Shown here in pieces: positions 49,158 to 60,671 of a stretch of 64,000 nucleotides of DNA; position 1 is the stretch's first letter; each line of letters starts with the position of its first letter. The notes below the pieces were generated by a model, which worked only from the letters and a program-made list of their open reading frames with translations, did no database searches and had not been told where the DNA came from. Source of the DNA: a phage. The DNA is taken from NCBI GenBank assembly GCA_025829515.1, contig GCA_025829515.1_4865.1; one strand, 5' to 3'. The position numbers and the translations under genes were made by a program.

Positions 49158-49781
49158 TTAATTTGTTAACCCGTTATCTTTCAGGATTTTCAACATCGCA
49201 TCATTCAACGCCTGCAGTTCTTGATTCTGCTTAGTGAGTGTTGCAACTTGTTCTGTCAGAGGAACCTGCTCACGGATTTTGGCTTTACGCACCGCTTCCA
49301 TTTGCAAGTGTTCTTCTTCCGTCACCGTCCCTTCGTAATCCATCGATGTGATGTCCACACGTGCATCGATTCCTAAACCGCGTTCTAAGATGCTTTTCAG
49401 GTCGTTCGTTAGCAGTGTGACATCGACGTATTCGGGTATTAATGCCAGGTCAATAACCACCACATTGCGTCTATAATTTAACCCATTCAGTCCAGGATAC
49501 GTCTCAATGTACGTATCAGGCAACTCGTAGACTTGACCGTCCCTCGACTTTAATGTTACAATCGAGGCTTCGACATTAGCGTCGCTGATATAGTCGTCAC
49601 GAGTTAGGCCGACAGGTTTATAATACTTGTTATAAACGTCAATATTATTACGTTGGAGTTTCGGAAAGTTCTGTACCGCGTCAACACGGTAAATCACTTT
49701 ATCTGGCAACGTATAAGGTGCCTTAACCTTGAACAACCCCTCAAGGTTAACCTGAGGCGTGTTAGGCAACAGTTGTGCCAT
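49158..49781 (-). CDS. hypothetical protein (207 aa)
   Basis: ORF track; C-terminal coiled-coil-like region; co-oriented with the next gene. Confidence 0.45.
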   Translation of the reverse strand: MAQLLPNTPQVNLEGLFKVKAPYTLPDKVIYRVDAVQNFPKLQRNNIDVYNKYYKPVGLTRDDYISDANVEASIVTLKSRDGQVYELPDTYIETYPGLNGLNYRRNVVVIDLALIPEYVDVTLLTNDLKSILERGLGIDARVDITSMDYEGTVTEEEHLQMEAVRKAKIREQVPLTEQVATLTKQNQELQALNDAMLKILKDNGLTN

Positions 49782-49791
49782 TTAACCCTCC

Positions 49792-51171
49792 TTAGGCTTC
49801 TGGCTCTGCCGCAGGGACATCCCAAACAGCTTTGCGGGCCAAGACACGATACTCCACGTTATCGAATTCGAAGACGTAGAAGTAAACGTTAGGATCGACG
49901 TCGTCTACGAGCTTCACGATATCCAGCGGGGTGGAATGTGGGTGATACTCTTCCGCTGCGATTAACGCCTGGAAGAACAAGTCCAGCCACTCGGTGGTTT
50001 TCTTCGACATTCTCGCAATATCTGCATTGTTAGTGCCGATTAATGCGTAGTCGGGAATCGTATCGTGCAGGGTCGTTTTGCGTGAATCGTTTTCAGGGCC
50101 TGCGATAACTACAGCGTTTAGTGATTTATAGATGGACGGTAAATCCGTTACATCGGTAGTTGGAGTTGAGATTGCTCCACTATTTTTTTCCGTAATGGTT
50201 TGAACAGTCCACTCCCCAAATCGGGAGATTGCTTTGACCCAGAAATCATATGGGAGAATCGGCGAGTATAATGCCGCAACGTCTTCCTCATTTGGAATCC
50301 CACGAATTGACCAACCGGGAACAATTGTGAACTTGGTGGTCGTAAAGATTTCTGGGAACACCTTGACACCCAACGCCACAGTAAAACTGGAGTTTGCCAA
50401 AATGTAATCACGCAACGCTTGTTTAATCCTGCTCGGGTTACGACCCGCGCGTCCGTAGATGATAGCCGACATCGGTATCGGTAAGGTGGAATCAAAGTCT
50501 TCCTGGTCGTGCCAAGTATAGATGTTAGTAATCAGGCTAGTGTACGGATAACCGTCAGCTAATTCGTTAATCTTATTATGGTGATCCGGAAGGTTGAACC
50601 CTTCCATTGCCTTTTCGACTACAGATTTCACAGCCAAGAAAGTATCAACCGGTAATATCGGCATTTGGACTTCAATTTCAAATCCGGTATAGTCCTGATT
50701 GAAATCTTCATCAGCAAACCAGAGAATAATCTGGTTATTCACATCAGATGGGTCTTCGACTTTATCTGCTGTGGTTTCAAGTTTCCAACTGACCCAACGT
50801 GGGAACCAGTTACTGTTAGTCTGAATCATCGCGCCAGACTGAACACCGCTGATGACACTATTAAATTGCCCCAACAGCAAACGCTGGAATTCAACTTCGT
50901 CGTTTCTTAAGTTGCCCAGGATAGACTGTTGGTAGATCCATTGGGAAACAGTAAGAACGTGGTCGCTAAAGACGGCCGGGGTCTTAATAGGCAACTCGTC
51001 ACGTTTAGAAGTAAAAGCAACCAGTTCCACCTGCAGATTTTCTTTAGTAAAATACTGCTTGCTTTTAGCGAACGAATATGACAGCTCAGACAACTCACCT
51101 ACCGGAGCGGTGTTGCCAGGGCCATTATCAATCAGAGCCGCTATTTGAATAAAGCCTTGTAAATCATACAT
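49792..51171 (-). CDS. hypothetical protein (459 aa)
   Basis: ATG with GGAGAG RBS; long ORF. Confidence 0.5.
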   Translation of the reverse strand: MYDLQGFIQIAALIDNGPGNTAPVGELSELSYSFAKSKQYFTKENLQVELVAFTSKRDELPIKTPAVFSDHVLTVSQWIYQQSILGNLRNDEVEFQRLLLGQFNSVISGVQSGAMIQTNSNWFPRWVSWKLETTADKVEDPSDVNNQIILWFADEDFNQDYTGFEIEVQMPILPVDTFLAVKSVVEKAMEGFNLPDHHNKINELADGYPYTSLITNIYTWHDQEDFDSTLPIPMSAIIYGRAGRNPSRIKQALRDYILANSSFTVALGVKVFPEIFTTTKFTIVPGWSIRGIPNEEDVAALYSPILPYDFWVKAISRFGEWTVQTITEKNSGAISTPTTDVTDLPSIYKSLNAVVIAGPENDSRKTTLHDTIPDYALIGTNNADIARMSKKTTEWLDLFFQALIAAEEYHPHSTPLDIVKLVDDVDPNVYFYVFEFDNVEYRVLARKAVWDVPAAEPEA

Positions 51172-52283: not shown

Positions 52284-53003
52284 ATGACATATCCTAAAAT
52301 TCTGCCTGTTTTAACACCAACCGTGGTTGTTGGGACGGACTTAGAAACTCTGGCCTTGCGTCCAGATGCCTACATCTTAACGTTGGCAAACGTGGCATTC
52401 GATGTTCCGACAATGAAAATGATCGGTTCATGTTACCACAAAATCGACCCCAACGATGCAAAAGCAAAAGAAATCTTCTACATCGATCCACAAACGGTCG
52501 GTTATTGGGAAGGTAAAGGCGACCCCGAATACGCACCGAGCGAGAAAGCACGTATTGAAGCGTTTTCTGGGACCACTCCACTGCCAGAAGCACTGTGGGC
52601 GGCCAAAAAATGGTTGGATGATCTGGGCAACGTGAAAATGGTTATCACCATGCGCGGTCCCGATTTCGATGCTCCAATTCTGATGAACGCATTCGCGCAG
52701 TGCGATATCCCGCCGGGCAAGTACCGCAAGTTTTCTATATTGGACTCTGACCGGACTGCAGAACGTATTGCATATGCGTTTGGCCTGGAACCGAACTGGC
52801 ACGCAGAAGCGCACCACTGGACCCGTGGCAAAGAAGCGTACGAGCATAACGCTAACTTTGATGCTGCGAAGGAAGCGTATTCTACGGCACGCATCTATCA
52901 TTTGGCCCTGGTCGCGCGTACGTACGGCTTCGAACGCATGTTAGAAGCCCACCGCGAAATGTGCACAGGTGAATACATTCCACCGCAGTTGCGAGGAGAA
53001 TAA
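52284..53003 (+). CDS. DEDDh-type 3'-5' exonuclease (DnaQ-like fold), 239 aa
   Basis: Exo I GTDLET (D-x-E), Exo II GPDFDAPIL, Exo III HNANFDA (H-x4-D) in the canonical order; GGAGAG RBS. Confidence 0.55.
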   Translation: MTYPKILPVLTPTVVVGTDLETLALRPDAYILTLANVAFDVPTMKMIGSCYHKIDPNDAKAKEIFYIDPQTVGYWEGKGDPEYAPSEKARIEAFSGTTPLPEALWAAKKWLDDLGNVKMVITMRGPDFDAPILMNAFAQCDIPPGKYRKFSILDSDRTAERIAYAFGLEPNWHAEAHHWTRGKEAYEHNANFDAAKEAYSTARIYHLALVARTYGFERMLEAHREMCTGEYIPPQLRGE

Positions 53004-54517
53004 TGAAAGACGTCGACGTAGCGGTTATTTATACCGATGGTAGTCATACTGAGTCCCCGAAAGGTTCGGGGGCTGGTATTCATGGTTATTTATTCAACAA
53101 CGGAGATTTGGAAGACAGTCAGGCTTATAGCCATCCGGGTGTTTCAGAACGGATTACCACTGTTGGATACAAAAAAGTGCCGCAGGATGTGAAGTGTCCG
53201 GAGTTGCCGGACACCGTTCAATTTGTCGACGCCGTTATTCCCGTTCCGAAAGAGTTCTACTCAGATGTGGGCGAGTTAATCGCCTTCATCACGTTGTTTG
53301 AGAACGCGCCCTTCCGCGCGAAGAACTATATCATCTACGTGGATGCCAGTTACGTTGTAAACACTTTTAACGAGTGGATAGACGGGTGGCATAAACGTGG
53401 TTGGGTTCGTGCTGACGGTACTCCGCTGGCGAACAAAGAACTTATTGTTCGTATCTGGGAAATCAAACAGCAGATGAAAAAAGAAGGACGGGGTGTTAAG
53501 GTTATCAAAATCAAAGGACACTCCGGCCACTACGGTAACGACCGGGCGGACGAATTGGCTAGAAAAGGTTCAGCCATCACAGCGACCAACGACGGCGTTC
53601 CATATCAGCCGTACTGGTCGAAGGATGAGTTGCCTGCATCCGCGGAACCCGAGCCCATCGCCGCTGGGATGAACCTTGCGGCATATCCGCCGGTTTGTAC
53701 GGTTAAATATTGCTATCCGTTGGTGAACGAGGACCATCCTACTGTAAAAGTGAAAGATGAAACTTTCTATTACATGTTTGGTGGCAACCATGCAAAGAAC
53801 AAGGACGACTTGGTGTTTATTGGGAAAATGATTCCTGATGCACACTTTTCCGTAATGTTCACTAAACAACCGTGGGATAACATCTACACGATTGTAAACA
53901 ACCACGCCGCCCTGGCATGGAAAGATACACCGAAGATGCGGCAGTATGATCCAATCGGTGTTGTTAACAATGAGTTCGTTAAACGTAAGAAGTTCGTTGA
54001 CGTGGCAGGTGATGGATTACCGGCAGACAAGATGCATTTCAGTGGAGAAGATTCCAATGTCTGGTTCTTTGAAGACCTGGCCATCTCCAGAATGCTTCGC
54101 CCGCCCTTATTGTCGTACCGTGCGCTGGATATTCGTGACGAACTCGCTACAACGTTGAGAGATGTTCTGCATCAGGAAAAGGGTTATGTCTTAAATGATA
54201 TTACTGACTTGTTGTTCGATGACAAAGGTAAGCCTGTTAAGGAATACTACCGTAGCGTCGATAAGTCAATAACGTTAAAGATTGACTTTCCGATGGGTAA
54301 ACGACCTGTCTCGGTTATTTTGACGCGTGGTATTGATATTCCATCGCGTACGGAAATCAACCGTATTAAAGAACCCGAAGGCCGTTATTACATCGCGGTG
54401 TGTCGTCCTGAAAAATACTACATCCGTTACTTCTTAATCTATATCGGTAAAGAGTATCATGGGTTGTGGTGTGCGTATTACGCAAACCGTCGCATACTGC
54501 GAGAAGAAGAGGTGTAA
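53003..54517 (+). CDS. RNase H (type 1) domain protein with about 300-aa C-terminal extension (504 aa)
   Basis: N-terminal VIYTDGS...GAGIHGY, and KIKGHSGHYGNDRADELARKG matching the RNase H1 catalytic C-terminal motif (H..G..N..AD.LA); TAATG overlap with the upstream gene. Confidence 0.6.
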   Translation: MKDVDVAVIYTDGSHTESPKGSGAGIHGYLFNNGDLEDSQAYSHPGVSERITTVGYKKVPQDVKCPELPDTVQFVDAVIPVPKEFYSDVGELIAFITLFENAPFRAKNYIIYVDASYVVNTFNEWIDGWHKRGWVRADGTPLANKELIVRIWEIKQQMKKEGRGVKVIKIKGHSGHYGNDRADELARKGSAITATNDGVPYQPYWSKDELPASAEPEPIAAGMNLAAYPPVCTVKYCYPLVNEDHPTVKVKDETFYYMFGGNHAKNKDDLVFIGKMIPDAHFSVMFTKQPWDNIYTIVNNHAALAWKDTPKMRQYDPIGVVNNEFVKRKKFVDVAGDGLPADKMHFSGEDSNVWFFEDLAISRMLRPPLLSYRALDIRDELATTLRDVLHQEKGYVLNDITDLLFDDKGKPVKEYYRSVDKSITLKIDFPMGKRPVSVILTRGIDIPSRTEINRIKEPEGRYYIAVCRPEKYYIRYFLIYIGKEYHGLWCAYYANRRILREEEV

Positions 54518-54518
54518 C

Positions 54519-55259
54519 ATGTTGCGAGTCGTGAGTGAATCGCTCACGCTCCACACACAAAGTCTGATTAACTGTGTGGAGCAATACGGATGGATGTCGT
54601 GGATGGCAACGAACCGTGAGTTTGGTGCTGCGCCCATGGAAGATTACGACGTGTTGTACAAGTGGGGATTTGAAGCGGCTTGTGATGTTGTGGCAGAGCT
54701 GGTTACCGAAACAATTGCGCGTTACAACGCAAGATGTGATGAACCGATGCCTAAACAAGTCCCGCCGCAAATACCTCCGCTACCGACAATCGATCGTGAG
54801 CATTGTCGAATCTGGACAATGGAAGAGTTGTACGACGAACACGTTAGAATGCTGAAACCGAACGAGCTAATAACCGGTGCGTTGAACTGGTTCTTACATC
54901 GGTTCTGGACAGAGTTGGTCGATGTGGCGGGTGACGAAGATAATTGTTCTCAGGTTATTTGGTACGATCGAGCGATGTTTCATCGCAGTCTTAAAGATCG
55001 TAGTCTCTGCAACCTGTATATTGTTGACCCGTGTGAAGACATTGTAAAGGTAGCAGAAGGTAACTCTTATTCCGACTTGGTGATGCCCGTGGTAGAAAAA
55101 CCGATGGGTATTTTCCTGCAGGGAGACGCTTGGGTTTTAACGGATGATATCTCGGGCTACCTGCTGGACCCGGATGACATTCACTCGGACGAACCTGATA
55201 CCATCGAGTATTTTCACTTTACAGAACAGGCAGCACGCTTCTTGCATCTCTTAAAGTAA
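54519..55259 (+). CDS. hypothetical protein (about 246 aa)
   Basis: Start chosen at ATG 54519 (GAGG RBS), 2 nt after the RNase H stop; the track start at 54459 would overlap it. Confidence 0.45.
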   Translation: MLRVVSESLTLHTQSLINCVEQYGWMSWMATNREFGAAPMEDYDVLYKWGFEAACDVVAELVTETIARYNARCDEPMPKQVPPQIPPLPTIDREHCRIWTMEELYDEHVRMLKPNELITGALNWFLHRFWTELVDVAGDEDNCSQVIWYDRAMFHRSLKDRSLCNLYIVDPCEDIVKVAEGNSYSDLVMPVVEKPMGIFLQGDAWVLTDDISGYLLDPDDIHSDEPDTIEYFHFTEQAARFLHLLK

Positions 55260-59177: not shown

Positions 59178-60671
59178 ATGGCAGGTCCAGCTAAACAAGT
59201 CATGGGTGAAGTGATTCGCCCTCGTTTTAACGTATATACCATCATGGACCACGCTCTCGGTAACTACGAGCGCGGGGAAGATGGCTTGTACTACCTCAAC
59301 GGTGGTTTTGCCCACATCATGGGCTTCGCAGGTCGTGGGAACACTTTTAAGTCTACCTTATTAGACTTCTGCATTTTCATGATTCTGCAACGTTATAATG
59401 CAGCCTGGGGATCGAAATACGATACCGAAGTTACGGCAGCATTAAGTCGTCTGGAAACAGGGTACATTTCCGCAGCGAAAGCAAACGGATTAGAAGTATC
59501 ACCAACGGGCGGCGTGCTGGACCTGATCCACGAAGGTCGTTACAACATGGTTGGCTCGGATATCATGGCAGGTGAAGAATATTACTCTGCCTATATCCGT
59601 GACGAAGTCGAAAAACGTTTCAAAGAGTATATGGCTGGTAAGGCACGCGAAACACCATTCCCTGACCCAATCCGTCGCTCTGCGAAAAAGATTCTCGACC
59701 CGTGGTTGTACTCGATTGACTCCCTGTCCGAATGGCACACTTCTTCCCTGGAAGAGAAACATGCCAAATCAGAAGTCGGTGATTCTGAACAGAACATCCT
59801 GAACGCCCACGATGCCCTGCAGAAATCGAATATGATGAGCCGTTGGCCGTCTGCGTTTGCGCGTGGTGGTTTCTATATGGGCTTCGTTGCTCAGTTGGCC
59901 GACGATGCGGGTAAAGCAATGGCGGCAGGTGGCCGTGGTGGACCGAAGGCGAACGGTAAACTGTTGGACGATGCAGGCGATGATCTGAAGTTTGCGGGTA
60001 TCCCGCGCCGTCAGTTGTCGTTCTTAACTAACTCCCTGCTGGTTGCAACCAAGTCTGGTGAGTTGAAGCAGGATCAGACTTACAACGCGAAGACCGGTGT
60101 AAACGAAGAGAAATACCCGACTGCGCGTTCGAAAGCAATGAATGCTTCGGTGAACGACCTGAAAGAAATTGTTTTCACGCAGTACCGTGCGAAGGGTGGT
60201 CACACAGGCGTTAAGTTCAAAATGGTCTTCTCGCAGGAGATGGGTCTGCTTTATCACCTCTCTCTGTGGCATTACCTGAGCGACACACTGAAAGATGAAT
60301 GGGGCTACAAACGTAGTGGTGCTAACTATACCCTCGATTTGCTACCTGGTACATCTTTCATGCGTACCACGATTCGCGACATGTGTGACAGCAACCCGCG
60401 TTTGCGCCGGGCGTTGGAAATCACCGCCGCACTAGCGTACATGCAGAATAACTACCACCGACTGGAAATGAAGTACCATCTCTCACCGGCGGAGCTTTAT
60501 AAAGTTATCGACGAAAAGTGGGACTGGAATGAAATTCTGGACAATACAGTGGAATACTGGATGTTCAAGGATCAGGAAGTCAAAGGTGGTAAGCGTTGCT
60601 TAACAGCAATGTCATTACTGGCGATGGCCGTGGATGGTCTGGAACCTAAGTTCTTGACTAAGAAGAAATAA
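59178..60671 (+). CDS. hypothetical protein (497 aa)
   Basis: ORF track; long ORF followed by a terminator; no confident motif. Confidence 0.5.
   Translation: MAGPAKQVMGEVIRPRFNVYTIMDHALGNYERGEDGLYYLNGGFAHIMGFAGRGNTFKSTLLDFCIFMILQRYNAAWGSKYDTEVTAALSRLETGYISAAKANGLEVSPTGGVLDLIHEGRYNMVGSDIMAGEEYYSAYIRDEVEKRFKEYMAGKARETPFPDPIRRSAKKILDPWLYSIDSLSEWHTSSLEEKHAKSEVGDSEQNILNAHDALQKSNMMSRWPSAFARGGFYMGFVAQLADDAGKAMAAGGRGGPKANGKLLDDAGDDLKFAGIPRRQLSFLTNSLLVATKSGELKQDQTYNAKTGVNEEKYPTARSKAMNASVNDLKEIVFTQYRAKGGHTGVKFKMVFSQEMGLLYHLSLWHYLSDTLKDEWGYKRSGANYTLDLLPGTSFMRTTIRDMCDSNPRLRRALEITAALAYMQNNYHRLEMKYHLSPAELYKVIDEKWDWNEILDNTVEYWMFKDQEVKGGKRCLTAMSLLAMAVDGLEPKFLTKKK

What the first reader, a model, noticed from the sequence alone, without database searches (positions are those of the whole stretch)
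53003..54517. RNase H domain fused to a roughly 300-aa C-terminal extension of unknown function
The RNase H1 signature motifs occupy only about the first 200 residues of a 504-aa protein; the C-terminal portion has no motif I recognise. Typical phage RNase H proteins are much shorter, so this may be a fusion with a novel nucleic-acid-binding or targeting domain. It is adjacent to a DEDDh exonuclease.
Basis: partly seen in the sequence, partly recalled or inferred. Interest (0 to 1): 0.45.

Follow-up and report, generated by a model that had tools for sequence, protein, structure and literature searches.

The report
Jumbo-phage RNase H–clamp polymerase subunit (Rhc)
The long tail on this phage RNase H is a degenerate DNA sliding-clamp domain that helps the phage's split DNA polymerase hold DNA, and this protein family (Rhc, phiKZ gp155) was already described in 2025-2026, so the finding is real but not new.

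Summary
Window 53003-54517 (+) encodes a 504-aa protein with an intact RNase HI domain (aa 1-~205), a disordered linker (aa 209-215) and a well-folded ~280-aa C-terminal domain with no Pfam, NCBIfam or PDB sequence match. The window is an SPN3US-like Salmonella jumbo phage (Seoulvirus, Chimalliviridae).

The extension is not novel. The whole protein matches PHROG 3265 end to end. It is homologous over its full length to phiKZ gp155/Nlp2 and Goslar gp190. A profile of the C-terminal domain finds 543 cluster representatives, almost all ~500 aa with the same layout.

This reproduces two October 2026 preprints that name the family Rhc (RNase H-clamp). There the clamp-derived domain binds the split B-family polymerase (DNAP-N/DNAP-C) and the exiting duplex and boosts synthesis. 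The tethered RNase H removes RNA from hybrids. Both polymerase partners are encoded elsewhere in SPN3US-like genomes.

Verdict: already-known family, ordinary orthologue, low interest. The one clade-specific feature is a DEDDh exonuclease gene whose stop overlaps the Rhc start.

The parts
53003..54517 (+). Rhc (RNase H-clamp) gene, 504 aa plus stop. It is the orthologue of SPN3US ACQ60_gp059 / YP_009153501.1, phiKZ gp155 (Nlp2) and Goslar gp190.
   Evidence: ORF. phrog_3265 covers aa 1-504 at E 2e-189. 99.6% identical to the SPN3US protein, annotated 'ribonuclease'. BLASTP E 1e-37 to phiKZ155 and 5e-37 to Goslar gp190.
53003..53617 (+). N-terminal RNase HI domain (aa 1-~205) with an intact active site: D12, E91, D114, H173, D183.
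   Evidence: Pfam PF00075 E 8e-22. Alignment to E. coli RNase HI structures. D114 equals Goslar D119 and phiKZ D102, the residues mutated to make the catalytic-dead proteins. The catalytic columns are conserved in ≥96% of 160 family members.
53096..53218 (+). Family-specific ~40-aa insertion inside the RNase HI domain (aa ~32-72, between strands 2 and 3). Function unknown.
   Evidence: The D12-E91 spacing is 79 aa, against 38 in E. coli RNase HI. The Pfam match breaks here. It is confidently modelled, pLDDT ~87-92. It is also present in phiKZ155 and Goslar gp190.
53627..53647 (+). [quoted passage not shown]
   Evidence: This is the only segment with pLDDT <50. The full-length pTM is 0.57, against 0.88 for the C-terminal domain alone. 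This is consistent with the RNase H domain being invisible in the phiKZ cryo-EM maps.
53663..54514 (+). C-terminal sliding-clamp-derived domain (aa ~221-504; modelled as 225-504). It is the predicted dsDNA-binding and DNAP-C-binding module and the nuclear-localisation determinant.
52284..53003 (+). Upstream DEDDh 3'-5' exonuclease (239 aa). Its stop codon overlaps the Rhc start. It is a clade-specific neighbour, not part of the characterised Rhc-polymerase complex.
   Evidence: Pfam PF16473 E 1.2e-8 and phrog_255 E 8e-53. TAATG overlap, and no similarity to Goslar DNAP-N gp68. The same pair occurs in Erwinia phage Machina. It is absent next to Rhc in phiKZ, Goslar, Proteus phage 10 and RSF1.
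54519..55259 (+). Downstream conserved gene of unknown function (246 aa, SPN3US ACQ60_gp058). It starts one base after the Rhc stop.
   Evidence: phrog_9472 E 1.7e-112, with the match starting at residue 21 of the longer ORF. SPN3US annotation. Junction sequence.
49792..51171 (-). Virion structural protein, a synteny anchor that is divergently oriented upstream of the Rhc gene cluster.
   Evidence: phrog_3293 E 3.5e-176. Homologous to phiKZ gp157 (E 1e-53) and Goslar gp188 (E 8e-32), which flank Rhc in those phages.
59178..60671 (+). Homologue of phiKZ gp152 (Nlp1, RecA/UvsX-like nuclear protein) and Goslar gp193. It is a second synteny anchor, downstream of Rhc.
   Evidence: tblastn E 1e-50 (phiKZ152) and 3e-41 (Goslar gp193).

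Best explanation
The gene encodes the SPN3US-clade orthologue of Rhc (RNase H-clamp), a core replication protein of nucleus-forming jumbo phages (Chimalliviridae).

Proposed mechanism, by homology to phiKZ gp155 and Goslar gp190:
1. [quoted passage not shown]
2. Inside the nucleus, a single copy of the C-terminal clamp-derived domain docks on the thumb, palm and palm-insertion region of the split B-family DNA polymerase (DNAP-N + DNAP-C).
3. Together with the thumb it cradles the newly made duplex on a concave basic surface that corresponds to the inner face of a sliding clamp.
4. This shifts the polymerase from exonucleolysis to processive synthesis without a closed ring or a clamp loader.
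5. The RNase HI domain hangs on a flexible linker, where it can cut RNA in RNA:DNA hybrids on the template (primers or R-loops). In Goslar it also supports late transcription.

Shown here:
- The two-domain architecture.
- An intact RNase HI active site.
- The clamp-like fold.
- Full-length homology and synteny with the studied orthologues.
- Presence of both polymerase partners in the closest complete genomes.

Inferred from orthologues and not tested for this protein: DNA binding, polymerase binding and stimulation, nuclear import, and the role in transcription.
For: Architecture and family:
- The ORF is present, and phrog_3265 matches its full length.
- The window is 98-99% identical to SPN3US/SPFM jumbo phages. 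Seoulvirus is classified in Chimalliviridae.
- Full-length homology: phiKZ155 at 25% identity over aa 5-494, E 1e-37; Goslar gp190 at 26% identity over aa 76-501, E 5e-37.
- Synteny with phiKZ and Goslar is conserved on both sides.
- A C-terminal-only HMM finds 543 representatives, nearly all 450-570 aa with the domain at the C-terminus.

RNase H domain:
- The catalytic residues are conserved.

Fold:
- The models are confident. The linker at 209-215 is disordered.
- Foldseek against PDB gives the same families.
- BFVD shows the fold is shared by other jumbo-phage RNase H proteins.

Interface residues:
- Goslar L363/W365 and phiKZ M346 align with window L370/Y372, in the invariant RPxLLSYR motif.
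- Goslar DNA-binding residues K262, R264 and R318 align with H263, K265 and K329, in the invariant GNHAKNK and KRKK motifs.

Partners:
- DNAP-C is present in SPN3US and SPFM4 (E ~1e-97).
- DNAP-N is present in SPFM3, SEGD1 and Proteus phage 7 (E 4e-49).

Experimental basis in orthologues: PMC12571901, PMC13648698, PMC13648687, and bioRxiv 10.1101/2024.03.27.586873.
Against: - No experiment exists for the SPN3US-clade protein. Identity to the two studied orthologues is only ~25%.
- The residue mapping in loop regions is unreliable. Goslar R233 aligns with Y236, although the neighbouring K235 is basic. K259 falls in a gap. The C-terminal-tail residues (Goslar Y505/L507, phiKZ F478/I479) align only approximately with I498/L499.
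- phiKZ and Goslar disagree on whether RNase H catalysis and transcription support are needed. Which behaviour applies here cannot be said.
- The two key papers are unreviewed preprints.
- The polymerase partners are not in this window.
Confidence: 0.85

Rival explanations
1. The C-terminal domain is mainly a targeting or import module. It exists to be recognised by the phage nuclear import factor (PicA/Imp1) and to deliver an RNase HI into the phage nucleus. Any clamp resemblance is vestigial and there is no role at the polymerase.
For: phiKZ gp155 (Nlp2) is a model import cargo and is reported to interact with PicA. The isolated Goslar clamp domain localises to nascent nuclei, while the isolated RNase H domain does not. 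Clamp fold scores are only modest.
Against: In the orthologues the clamp domain alone stimulates the polymerase in vitro. Its DNA-binding and assembly mutants still localise to the nucleus but do not rescue replication. Cryo-EM shows it bound to DNAP-C and to the duplex. Catalytic-dead phiKZ Rhc still complements, so delivering RNase H activity cannot be the essential role. Many invariant basic residues in the window's clade fit DNA binding.
Confidence: 0.07
2. The C-terminal domain is a true ring-forming sliding clamp. It would oligomerise, for example as a trimer like PCNA or gp45, encircle DNA, and tether both the polymerase and the RNase H.
For: The best structural matches are ring-forming clamps: 9-1-1, PCNA, gp45 and beta-clamp. 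The domain is about the size of one PCNA protomer, with four main helices that carry conserved basic residues.
Against: The phiKZ cryo-EM structures show a single Rhc subunit. The authors report that the oligomerisation elements are missing and that no confident oligomer could be predicted. Global superposition on clamps is poor, TM ~0.25. According to the papers, no clamp loader has been identified in chimalliviruses. Oligomerisation was not tested here.
Confidence: 0.04
3. The protein works mainly as a stand-alone R-loop or primer-removal nuclease. The C-terminal domain acts only as a generic nucleic-acid-binding handle, analogous to the hybrid-binding domain of eukaryotic RNase H1, and is not a polymerase subunit.
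For: The RNase HI active site is intact and highly conserved. phiKZ155 and Goslar Rhc cleave RNA:DNA hybrids in vitro. Goslar Rhc has a transcription role that is independent of polymerase association but depends on clamp DNA binding. The gene is translationally coupled to another nuclease in this clade.
Against: The catalytic-dead mutant complements fully in phiKZ and partially in Goslar. The assembly mutants that only break polymerase contact abolish stimulation and replication. The polymerase-contact motif is invariant in this clade.
Confidence: 0.04

Closest known systems
Rhc (RNase H-clamp) of Chimalliviridae: phiKZ gp155/PHIKZ155/Nlp2, PhiPA3 gp176, Goslar gp190
   Same: - Same length class (482-508 aa) and the same order: RNase HI, flexible linker, clamp-derived domain.
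- Same insertion in the RNase H domain.
- Conserved catalytic residues and conserved polymerase-contact motif.
- Conserved gene neighbourhood.
- Same set of partner genes in the genome.
   Different: - Only ~25% identical to the studied proteins.
- In this clade the gene is preceded by, and overlaps, a DEDDh exonuclease gene that phiKZ and Goslar lack at this position.
- No experimental data exist for this orthologue.
Herpesvirus DNA polymerase processivity factors (HSV-1 UL42, HCMV UL44, KSHV PF-8, EBV BMRF1)
   Different: They have no RNase H domain. They bind the polymerase C-terminal tail rather than the thumb and palm insertion. UL44, PF-8 and BMRF1 are reported to form dimers or higher assemblies (my recollection, not checked here). 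There is no detectable sequence relationship.
Ring-forming sliding clamps (PCNA, 9-1-1, T4/RB69 gp45, bacterial beta-clamp)
   Same: They are the best structural matches for the C-terminal domain. Basic residues on the helices correspond to the DNA-facing inner surface, by inference and from the description.
Bacterial/phage RNase HI (E. coli RnhA, T5 rnhA; Pfam PF00075)
   Same: The N-terminal domain has the RNase HI fold, including the DEDD(H) active site and the basic-protrusion region 'WIDGWHKRGWVRADG'.
   Different: The window protein carries a ~40-aa insertion between strands 2 and 3 and a ~300-aa C-terminal extension. It is not the T4-type 'RNase H', which is a FEN-family 5' nuclease (notes that Goslar encodes that separately as gp177).

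Membership tests
Rhc (RNase H-clamp), Chimalliviridae | N-terminal RNase HI domain with a conserved catalytic site | tested here: met
   PF00075 E 8e-22. D12/E91/D114/H173/D183 align with E. coli D10/E48/D70/H124/D134. D114 equals Goslar D119 and phiKZ D102.
Rhc (RNase H-clamp), Chimalliviridae | C-terminal ~280-300-aa domain homologous to that of phiKZ gp155 / Goslar gp190 | tested here: met
   BLASTP alignments run through the C-terminal domain to aa 494 and aa 501. phrog_3265 matches the full length. The C-terminal-only profile retrieves the family. BFVD TM 0.72-0.94 to other jumbo-phage RNase H proteins.
Rhc (RNase H-clamp), Chimalliviridae | C-terminal domain has a sliding-clamp-protomer-like fold | tested here: met
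Rhc (RNase H-clamp), Chimalliviridae | Flexible tether between the two domains | tested here: met
   pLDDT is below 50 only at aa 209-215. pTM is 0.57 for the full length against 0.88 for the C-terminal domain alone. This is a prediction only.
Rhc (RNase H-clamp), Chimalliviridae | Conserved surface for binding DNAP-C (Goslar S272/L363/W365/Y505/L507; phiKZ M346/F478/I479) | tested here: inconclusive
   L363/M346 maps to L370 and W365 to Y372, both invariant in this clade. S272 maps to P278. The C-terminal-tail residues align only approximately, near I498/L499. No complex model was possible with these tools.
Rhc (RNase H-clamp), Chimalliviridae | Basic DNA-binding surface (Goslar R233/K259/K262/R264/R318) | tested here: inconclusive
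   These map to Y236 (with K235 adjacent), a gap, H263, K265 and K329. The clade has invariant H263, K265, K275, R328 and K329, plus K267 and K330 at ≥90%. The loop alignment is uncertain, and electrostatics were not computed.
Rhc (RNase H-clamp), Chimalliviridae | Genome also encodes the split B-family polymerase partners DNAP-N and DNAP-C | tested here: met
   They are not in the window. They are present in the closest complete genomes: DNAP-C in SPN3US and SPFM4 (E ~1e-97), and DNAP-N in SPFM3, SEGD1 and Proteus phage 7 (E 4e-49).
Rhc (RNase H-clamp), Chimalliviridae | Host phage belongs to the nucleus-forming Chimalliviridae | tested here: met
   The window is 98-99% identical to SPN3US/SPFM phages. 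Seoulvirus is listed under Chimalliviridae. The chimallin gene itself is not in the window.
Rhc (RNase H-clamp), Chimalliviridae | [quoted passage not shown] | not testable with these tools
   Known only for phiKZ, PhiPA3 and Goslar.
Canonical ring-forming sliding clamp (PCNA / gp45 / beta-clamp) | Oligomerises into a closed ring around DNA and is loaded by a clamp loader | not testable with these tools
   No multimer prediction was available. The literature reports a single subunit and missing oligomerisation elements in phiKZ and Goslar Rhc. I therefore do not file it as a canonical clamp.
T4-type phage RNase H (FEN / 5'-3' exonuclease family) | FEN/PIN-like 5' nuclease domain | tested here: not met
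   The only Pfam hit is RNase_H PF00075, which is type 1. The PDB sequence hits are all RNase HI or retroviral RNase H.

The most novel reading that the evidence does not exclude
In the SPN3US/Machina clade, Rhc is translationally coupled to a DEDDh 3'-5' exo(ribo)nuclease (stop/start overlap TAATG). This gene does not sit next to Rhc in phiKZ, Goslar, RSF1 or Proteus phage 10.

The most novel reading not excluded is that this exonuclease is a clade-specific fourth accessory of the Rhc-polymerase machine. For example, it could trim the RNA or DNA 3' ends left after RNase H cleavage, during primer removal or R-loop processing. It could also interact physically with Rhc.

Separately, the conserved and confidently folded ~40-aa insertion in the RNase H domain, which the Rhc papers do not describe, might be a docking site, for example for the non-virion RNA polymerase that co-purifies with Goslar Rhc.
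Probability: 0.12. Interest if true: 0.4.

Novelty: already known. Interest (0 to 1): 0.15.

Why it matters
The underlying biology is interesting. Nucleus-forming jumbo phages have no recognisable sliding clamp or clamp loader. Instead they use a single degenerate clamp protomer, fused to an RNase H, as an integrated processivity subunit of a split B-family polymerase.

That has now been shown for phiKZ and Goslar (Nature 2025 and two October 2026 preprints). This window only adds one more orthologue, which was already annotated in GenBank as 'ribonuclease H'.

Its practical value is a better annotation for SPN3US-like therapeutic Salmonella phages: 'Rhc, RNase H-clamp DNA polymerase subunit' instead of 'ribonuclease'. 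It also points to a clade-specific exonuclease neighbour that could be tested.

Tried and rejected
1. Pfam, NCBIfam and PDB sequence searches: nothing beyond RNase HI. Pfam and NCBIfam were run on the C-terminal 309 aa alone; the PDB search used the full-length protein. No Rhc structure is yet present in the PDB copy.

2. Word-index homologue search with the C-terminal region: it reached only ~42-44% identity relatives, all ~500 aa and carrying RNase H. The exhaustive profile search was needed to see the wider family.

3. A stand-alone or differently fused version of the clamp domain: the short hits whose ends are informative are truncated, starting inside the RNase H domain or partway through the clamp. 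P0079 (233 aa) has no close cultured-phage match and aligns only inside full-length Rhc genes, so I dropped it. Two short BFVD proteins (I1VX43, G4KKB4) could not be identified with the tools.

4. The idea that the adjacent exonuclease is the DNAP-N polymerase subunit: rejected. It has no significant similarity to Goslar gp68, and no DNAP-N, DNAP-C, DnaB, ChmA, PhuZ or ChmC homologue of Goslar lies in the window.

6. The sigma-70 promoter and terminator scan was not run, because these phages transcribe with their own RNA polymerases and the scan does not cover them.

Full report
**Observation.** Pfam finds only RNase_H (PF00075), on aa 89-190 (E 8e-22), plus a weak fragment on aa 8-29 that holds the first catalytic strand 'IYTDGS'. 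Alignment to E. coli RNase HI structures gives E91=E48, D114=D70, H173=H124 and D183=D134. With D12 as the first aspartate, the RNase HI active site is complete. The break in the Pfam match reflects a ~40-aa insertion (aa ~32-72) between strands 2 and 3. The C-terminal 309 aa give no hit in Pfam or NCBIfam, and the full-length protein gives no PDB sequence hit beyond RNase H. Ordinary phage RNase HI genes cover only 15-36% of the protein. The upstream gene 52284..53003 is a DEDDh-type exonuclease (PF16473 Rv2179c-like, phrog_255).

**Where the window comes from.** The region is 98-99% identical to Salmonella jumbo phages of the SPN3US/SPFM group. The protein is 99.6% identical to the SPN3US product (ACQ60_gp059, annotated 'ribonuclease'). 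Seoulvirus is classified in Chimalliviridae, the nucleus-forming phiKZ-like phages.

**Is the C-terminal extension peculiar to this protein?** No.
- PHROG 3265 ('ribonuclease', 496 positions) matches residues 1-504 at E 2e-189.
- tblastn finds 186 phage records covering ≥80% of the query. They include phiKZ (PHIKZ155, 25% identity over 97% of the query), Phabio, RSF1, Desertfox and Proteus phage 10.
- A search with the C-terminal region alone returns only ~500-aa proteins that also carry PF00075.
- An HMM of the C-terminal domain, run exhaustively against 1.84 billion representatives, finds 543 proteins at E ≤ 1e-3. Almost all are 450-570 aa with the domain at the C-terminus.
- The short hits whose ends are informative are truncated gene calls that begin inside the RNase H domain or partway through the clamp.
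- Within the SPN3US-like clade the C-terminal domain is as conserved as the RNase H domain. It has many invariant charged residues, in motifs such as GNHAKNKDD, KRKKF, RPxLLSYR, NDITD and GIDIPxRT.

**What the C-terminal domain is.**
- A full-length AlphaFold2 model (32-sequence alignment) has mean pLDDT 87.3, with a single disordered stretch at aa 209-215 and pTM 0.57.
- The C-terminal domain alone (aa 225-504) has pLDDT 88.3 and pTM 0.88. This indicates two rigid domains on a flexible tether.
- Foldseek against PDB gives the same families on top, but weakly (best E 1e-3, TM ~0.25).
- Foldseek against BFVD shows the fold is shared at TM 0.72-0.94 by 450-557-aa 'ribonuclease H' proteins of other jumbo phages. 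Viral beta-clamps and PCNAs appear at the weak end of the list.
- The domain has four main helices (292-305, 329-335, 368-389, 449-455) carrying conserved basic residues R328/K329/K330, R366, R373, R378, R449 and R454. I infer that these correspond to the inner, DNA-facing helices of one PCNA-like protomer.
- The clamp relationship is therefore supported by two methods, but it is remote.

**Literature.**
- phiKZ gp155 is 'Nlp2', an RNase H-like cargo of the phage nuclear import pathway (bioRxiv 10.1101/2024.03.27.586873).
- Gerovac et al. (Nature 2025, PMC12571901) showed that PHIKZ155 is a core gene and a bona fide RNase H in vitro. [quoted passage not shown] They noted a well-structured but uncharacterised C-terminal domain.
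- Rani et al. (PMC13648698) named the family Rhc (RNase H-clamp). For Goslar gp190 they showed that the C-terminal domain is related to PCNA and 9-1-1, binds DNAP-C, and stimulates the split polymerase in vitro without needing RNase H catalysis. They also showed that it needs defined DNA-binding and assembly surfaces, that it localises to the nucleus on its own, and that it supports late transcription.
- Basu et al. (PMC13648687) solved cryo-EM structures of phiKZ DNAP-N/DNAP-C with Rhc and with DNA. A single clamp domain, lacking ring-forming elements, sits against the DNAP-C thumb and binds the exiting duplex. The RNase H domain is flexible and not resolved.
- My fold search reproduces their structural assignment independently.

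**Is the window protein an orthologue of the studied proteins?**
- Pairwise BLASTP gives E 1e-37 to phiKZ155 (aa 5-494) and E 5e-37 to Goslar gp190 (aa 76-501), both running through the C-terminal domain.
- In a 160-sequence family alignment, D114 aligns with Goslar D119 and phiKZ D102. Goslar assembly residues L363/W365 and phiKZ M346 align with the invariant L370/Y372.
- Goslar DNA-binding residues K262/R264/R318 align with H263/K265/K329. R233, K259 and the C-terminal tail residues map only approximately.
- The catalytic columns are ≥96% conserved across the family.
- Synteny is conserved. The divergent virion structural gene 49792-51171 is homologous to phiKZ gp157 and Goslar gp188. The gene at 59178-60671 is homologous to phiKZ gp152 (Nlp1) and Goslar gp193. 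Both flank Rhc in those phages.
- The polymerase partners are not in this 64-kb window. They are encoded in the nearest complete genomes: DNAP-C in SPN3US and SPFM4 (30% identity, E ~1e-97), and DNAP-N in SPFM3, SEGD1 and Proteus phage 7 (29% identity, E 4e-49).

**Mechanism.** By homology, I conclude with ~0.85 confidence that this protein is the Rhc subunit of the SPN3US replication machine. It would be imported into the phage nucleus. A single clamp-derived domain would dock on the split B-family polymerase and, with the thumb, hold the nascent duplex, acting as a processivity subunit without a ring or a loader. The tethered RNase HI would remove RNA from hybrids on the template or in R-loops. 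The architecture, fold, active site, orthology and partner genes are shown here. The biochemical and cellular steps are inferred from phiKZ and Goslar, which differ from each other on how much RNase H catalysis and transcription support matter. Rivals are listed with low confidence: an import-tag-only role, a true ring clamp, and a stand-alone R-loop nuclease with a generic binding handle.

**What differs in this clade.**
- The DEDDh exonuclease gene's stop overlaps the Rhc start (TAATG). The same pair is found in Erwinia phage Machina.
- In phiKZ, Goslar, Proteus phage 10 and RSF1, small unrelated ORFs occupy that position instead.
- The exonuclease is not DNAP-N. Whether it cooperates with Rhc is open.
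- The RNase H-domain insertion is family-wide, and neither term-search of the Rani preprint nor the parts of the Basu preprint I read mention it.

**Verdict.** Novelty: already known. Interest: low (0.15).

Noticed in passing
window 52284-53003 (+) and junction at 53001-53005: A DEDDh (Rv2179c-like) 3'-5' exonuclease gene has its stop codon overlapping the Rhc start (TAATG). The pair is shared with Erwinia phage Machina but is absent next to Rhc in phiKZ, Goslar, RSF1 and Proteus phage 10. It is not the DNAP-N polymerase subunit.
   Followed up: partly
window 53096-53218 (aa ~32-72 of Rhc): A ~40-aa, confidently modelled insertion lies between strands 2 and 3 of the RNase HI domain. It contains a conserved G-Y and is also present in phiKZ155 and Goslar gp190. 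I found no discussion of it in what I read of the two Rhc preprints, and its function is unknown.
   Followed up: partly
GenBank records of SPFM1, SPFM5, SPFM9, SPFM12, SPFM14, SPFM15 and SPFM20 (hits H24, H25; proteins P0028, P0029, P0031, P0033, P0037, P0038): Several deposited SPFM phage genomes carry scrambled versions of this region. megablast breaks it into 40 short pieces, and the predicted proteins have permuted segments of Rhc. This looks like an assembly or deposition artefact rather than biology.
   Followed up: no
BFVD hits I1VX43 (233 aa, E 1.7e-10) and G4KKB4 (247 aa, E 7e-5): Two short viral proteins without an RNase H domain resemble the Rhc clamp domain more closely than any canonical clamp does. 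They might be stand-alone or intermediate clamp-like proteins. Their source phages could not be identified with the tools.
   Followed up: partly
window 49158-51171 (-) and 59178-60671 (+): Gene order around Rhc is conserved across very distant chimalliviruses. Upstream lies a divergent virion structural gene (homologue of phiKZ gp157 / Goslar gp188), with a Goslar gp187 homologue next to it. Downstream lies the RecA/UvsX-like Nlp1 (homologue of phiKZ gp152 / Goslar gp193).
   Followed up: yes
window 54459-55259 (+): The longest ORF for the downstream gene overlaps Rhc by 59 nt. However, the PHROG match starts at residue 21 and the RefSeq annotation starts at 54519, one base after the Rhc stop. 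The shorter start is therefore the likely one. The function is unknown (phrog_9472).
   Followed up: partly
P0019: A 488-aa family member is labelled 'MAG: RNase H family protein [Shewanella sp.]' and sits on a 222,728-bp contig. This is probably a jumbo-phage genome binned as a bacterial MAG.
   Followed up: no
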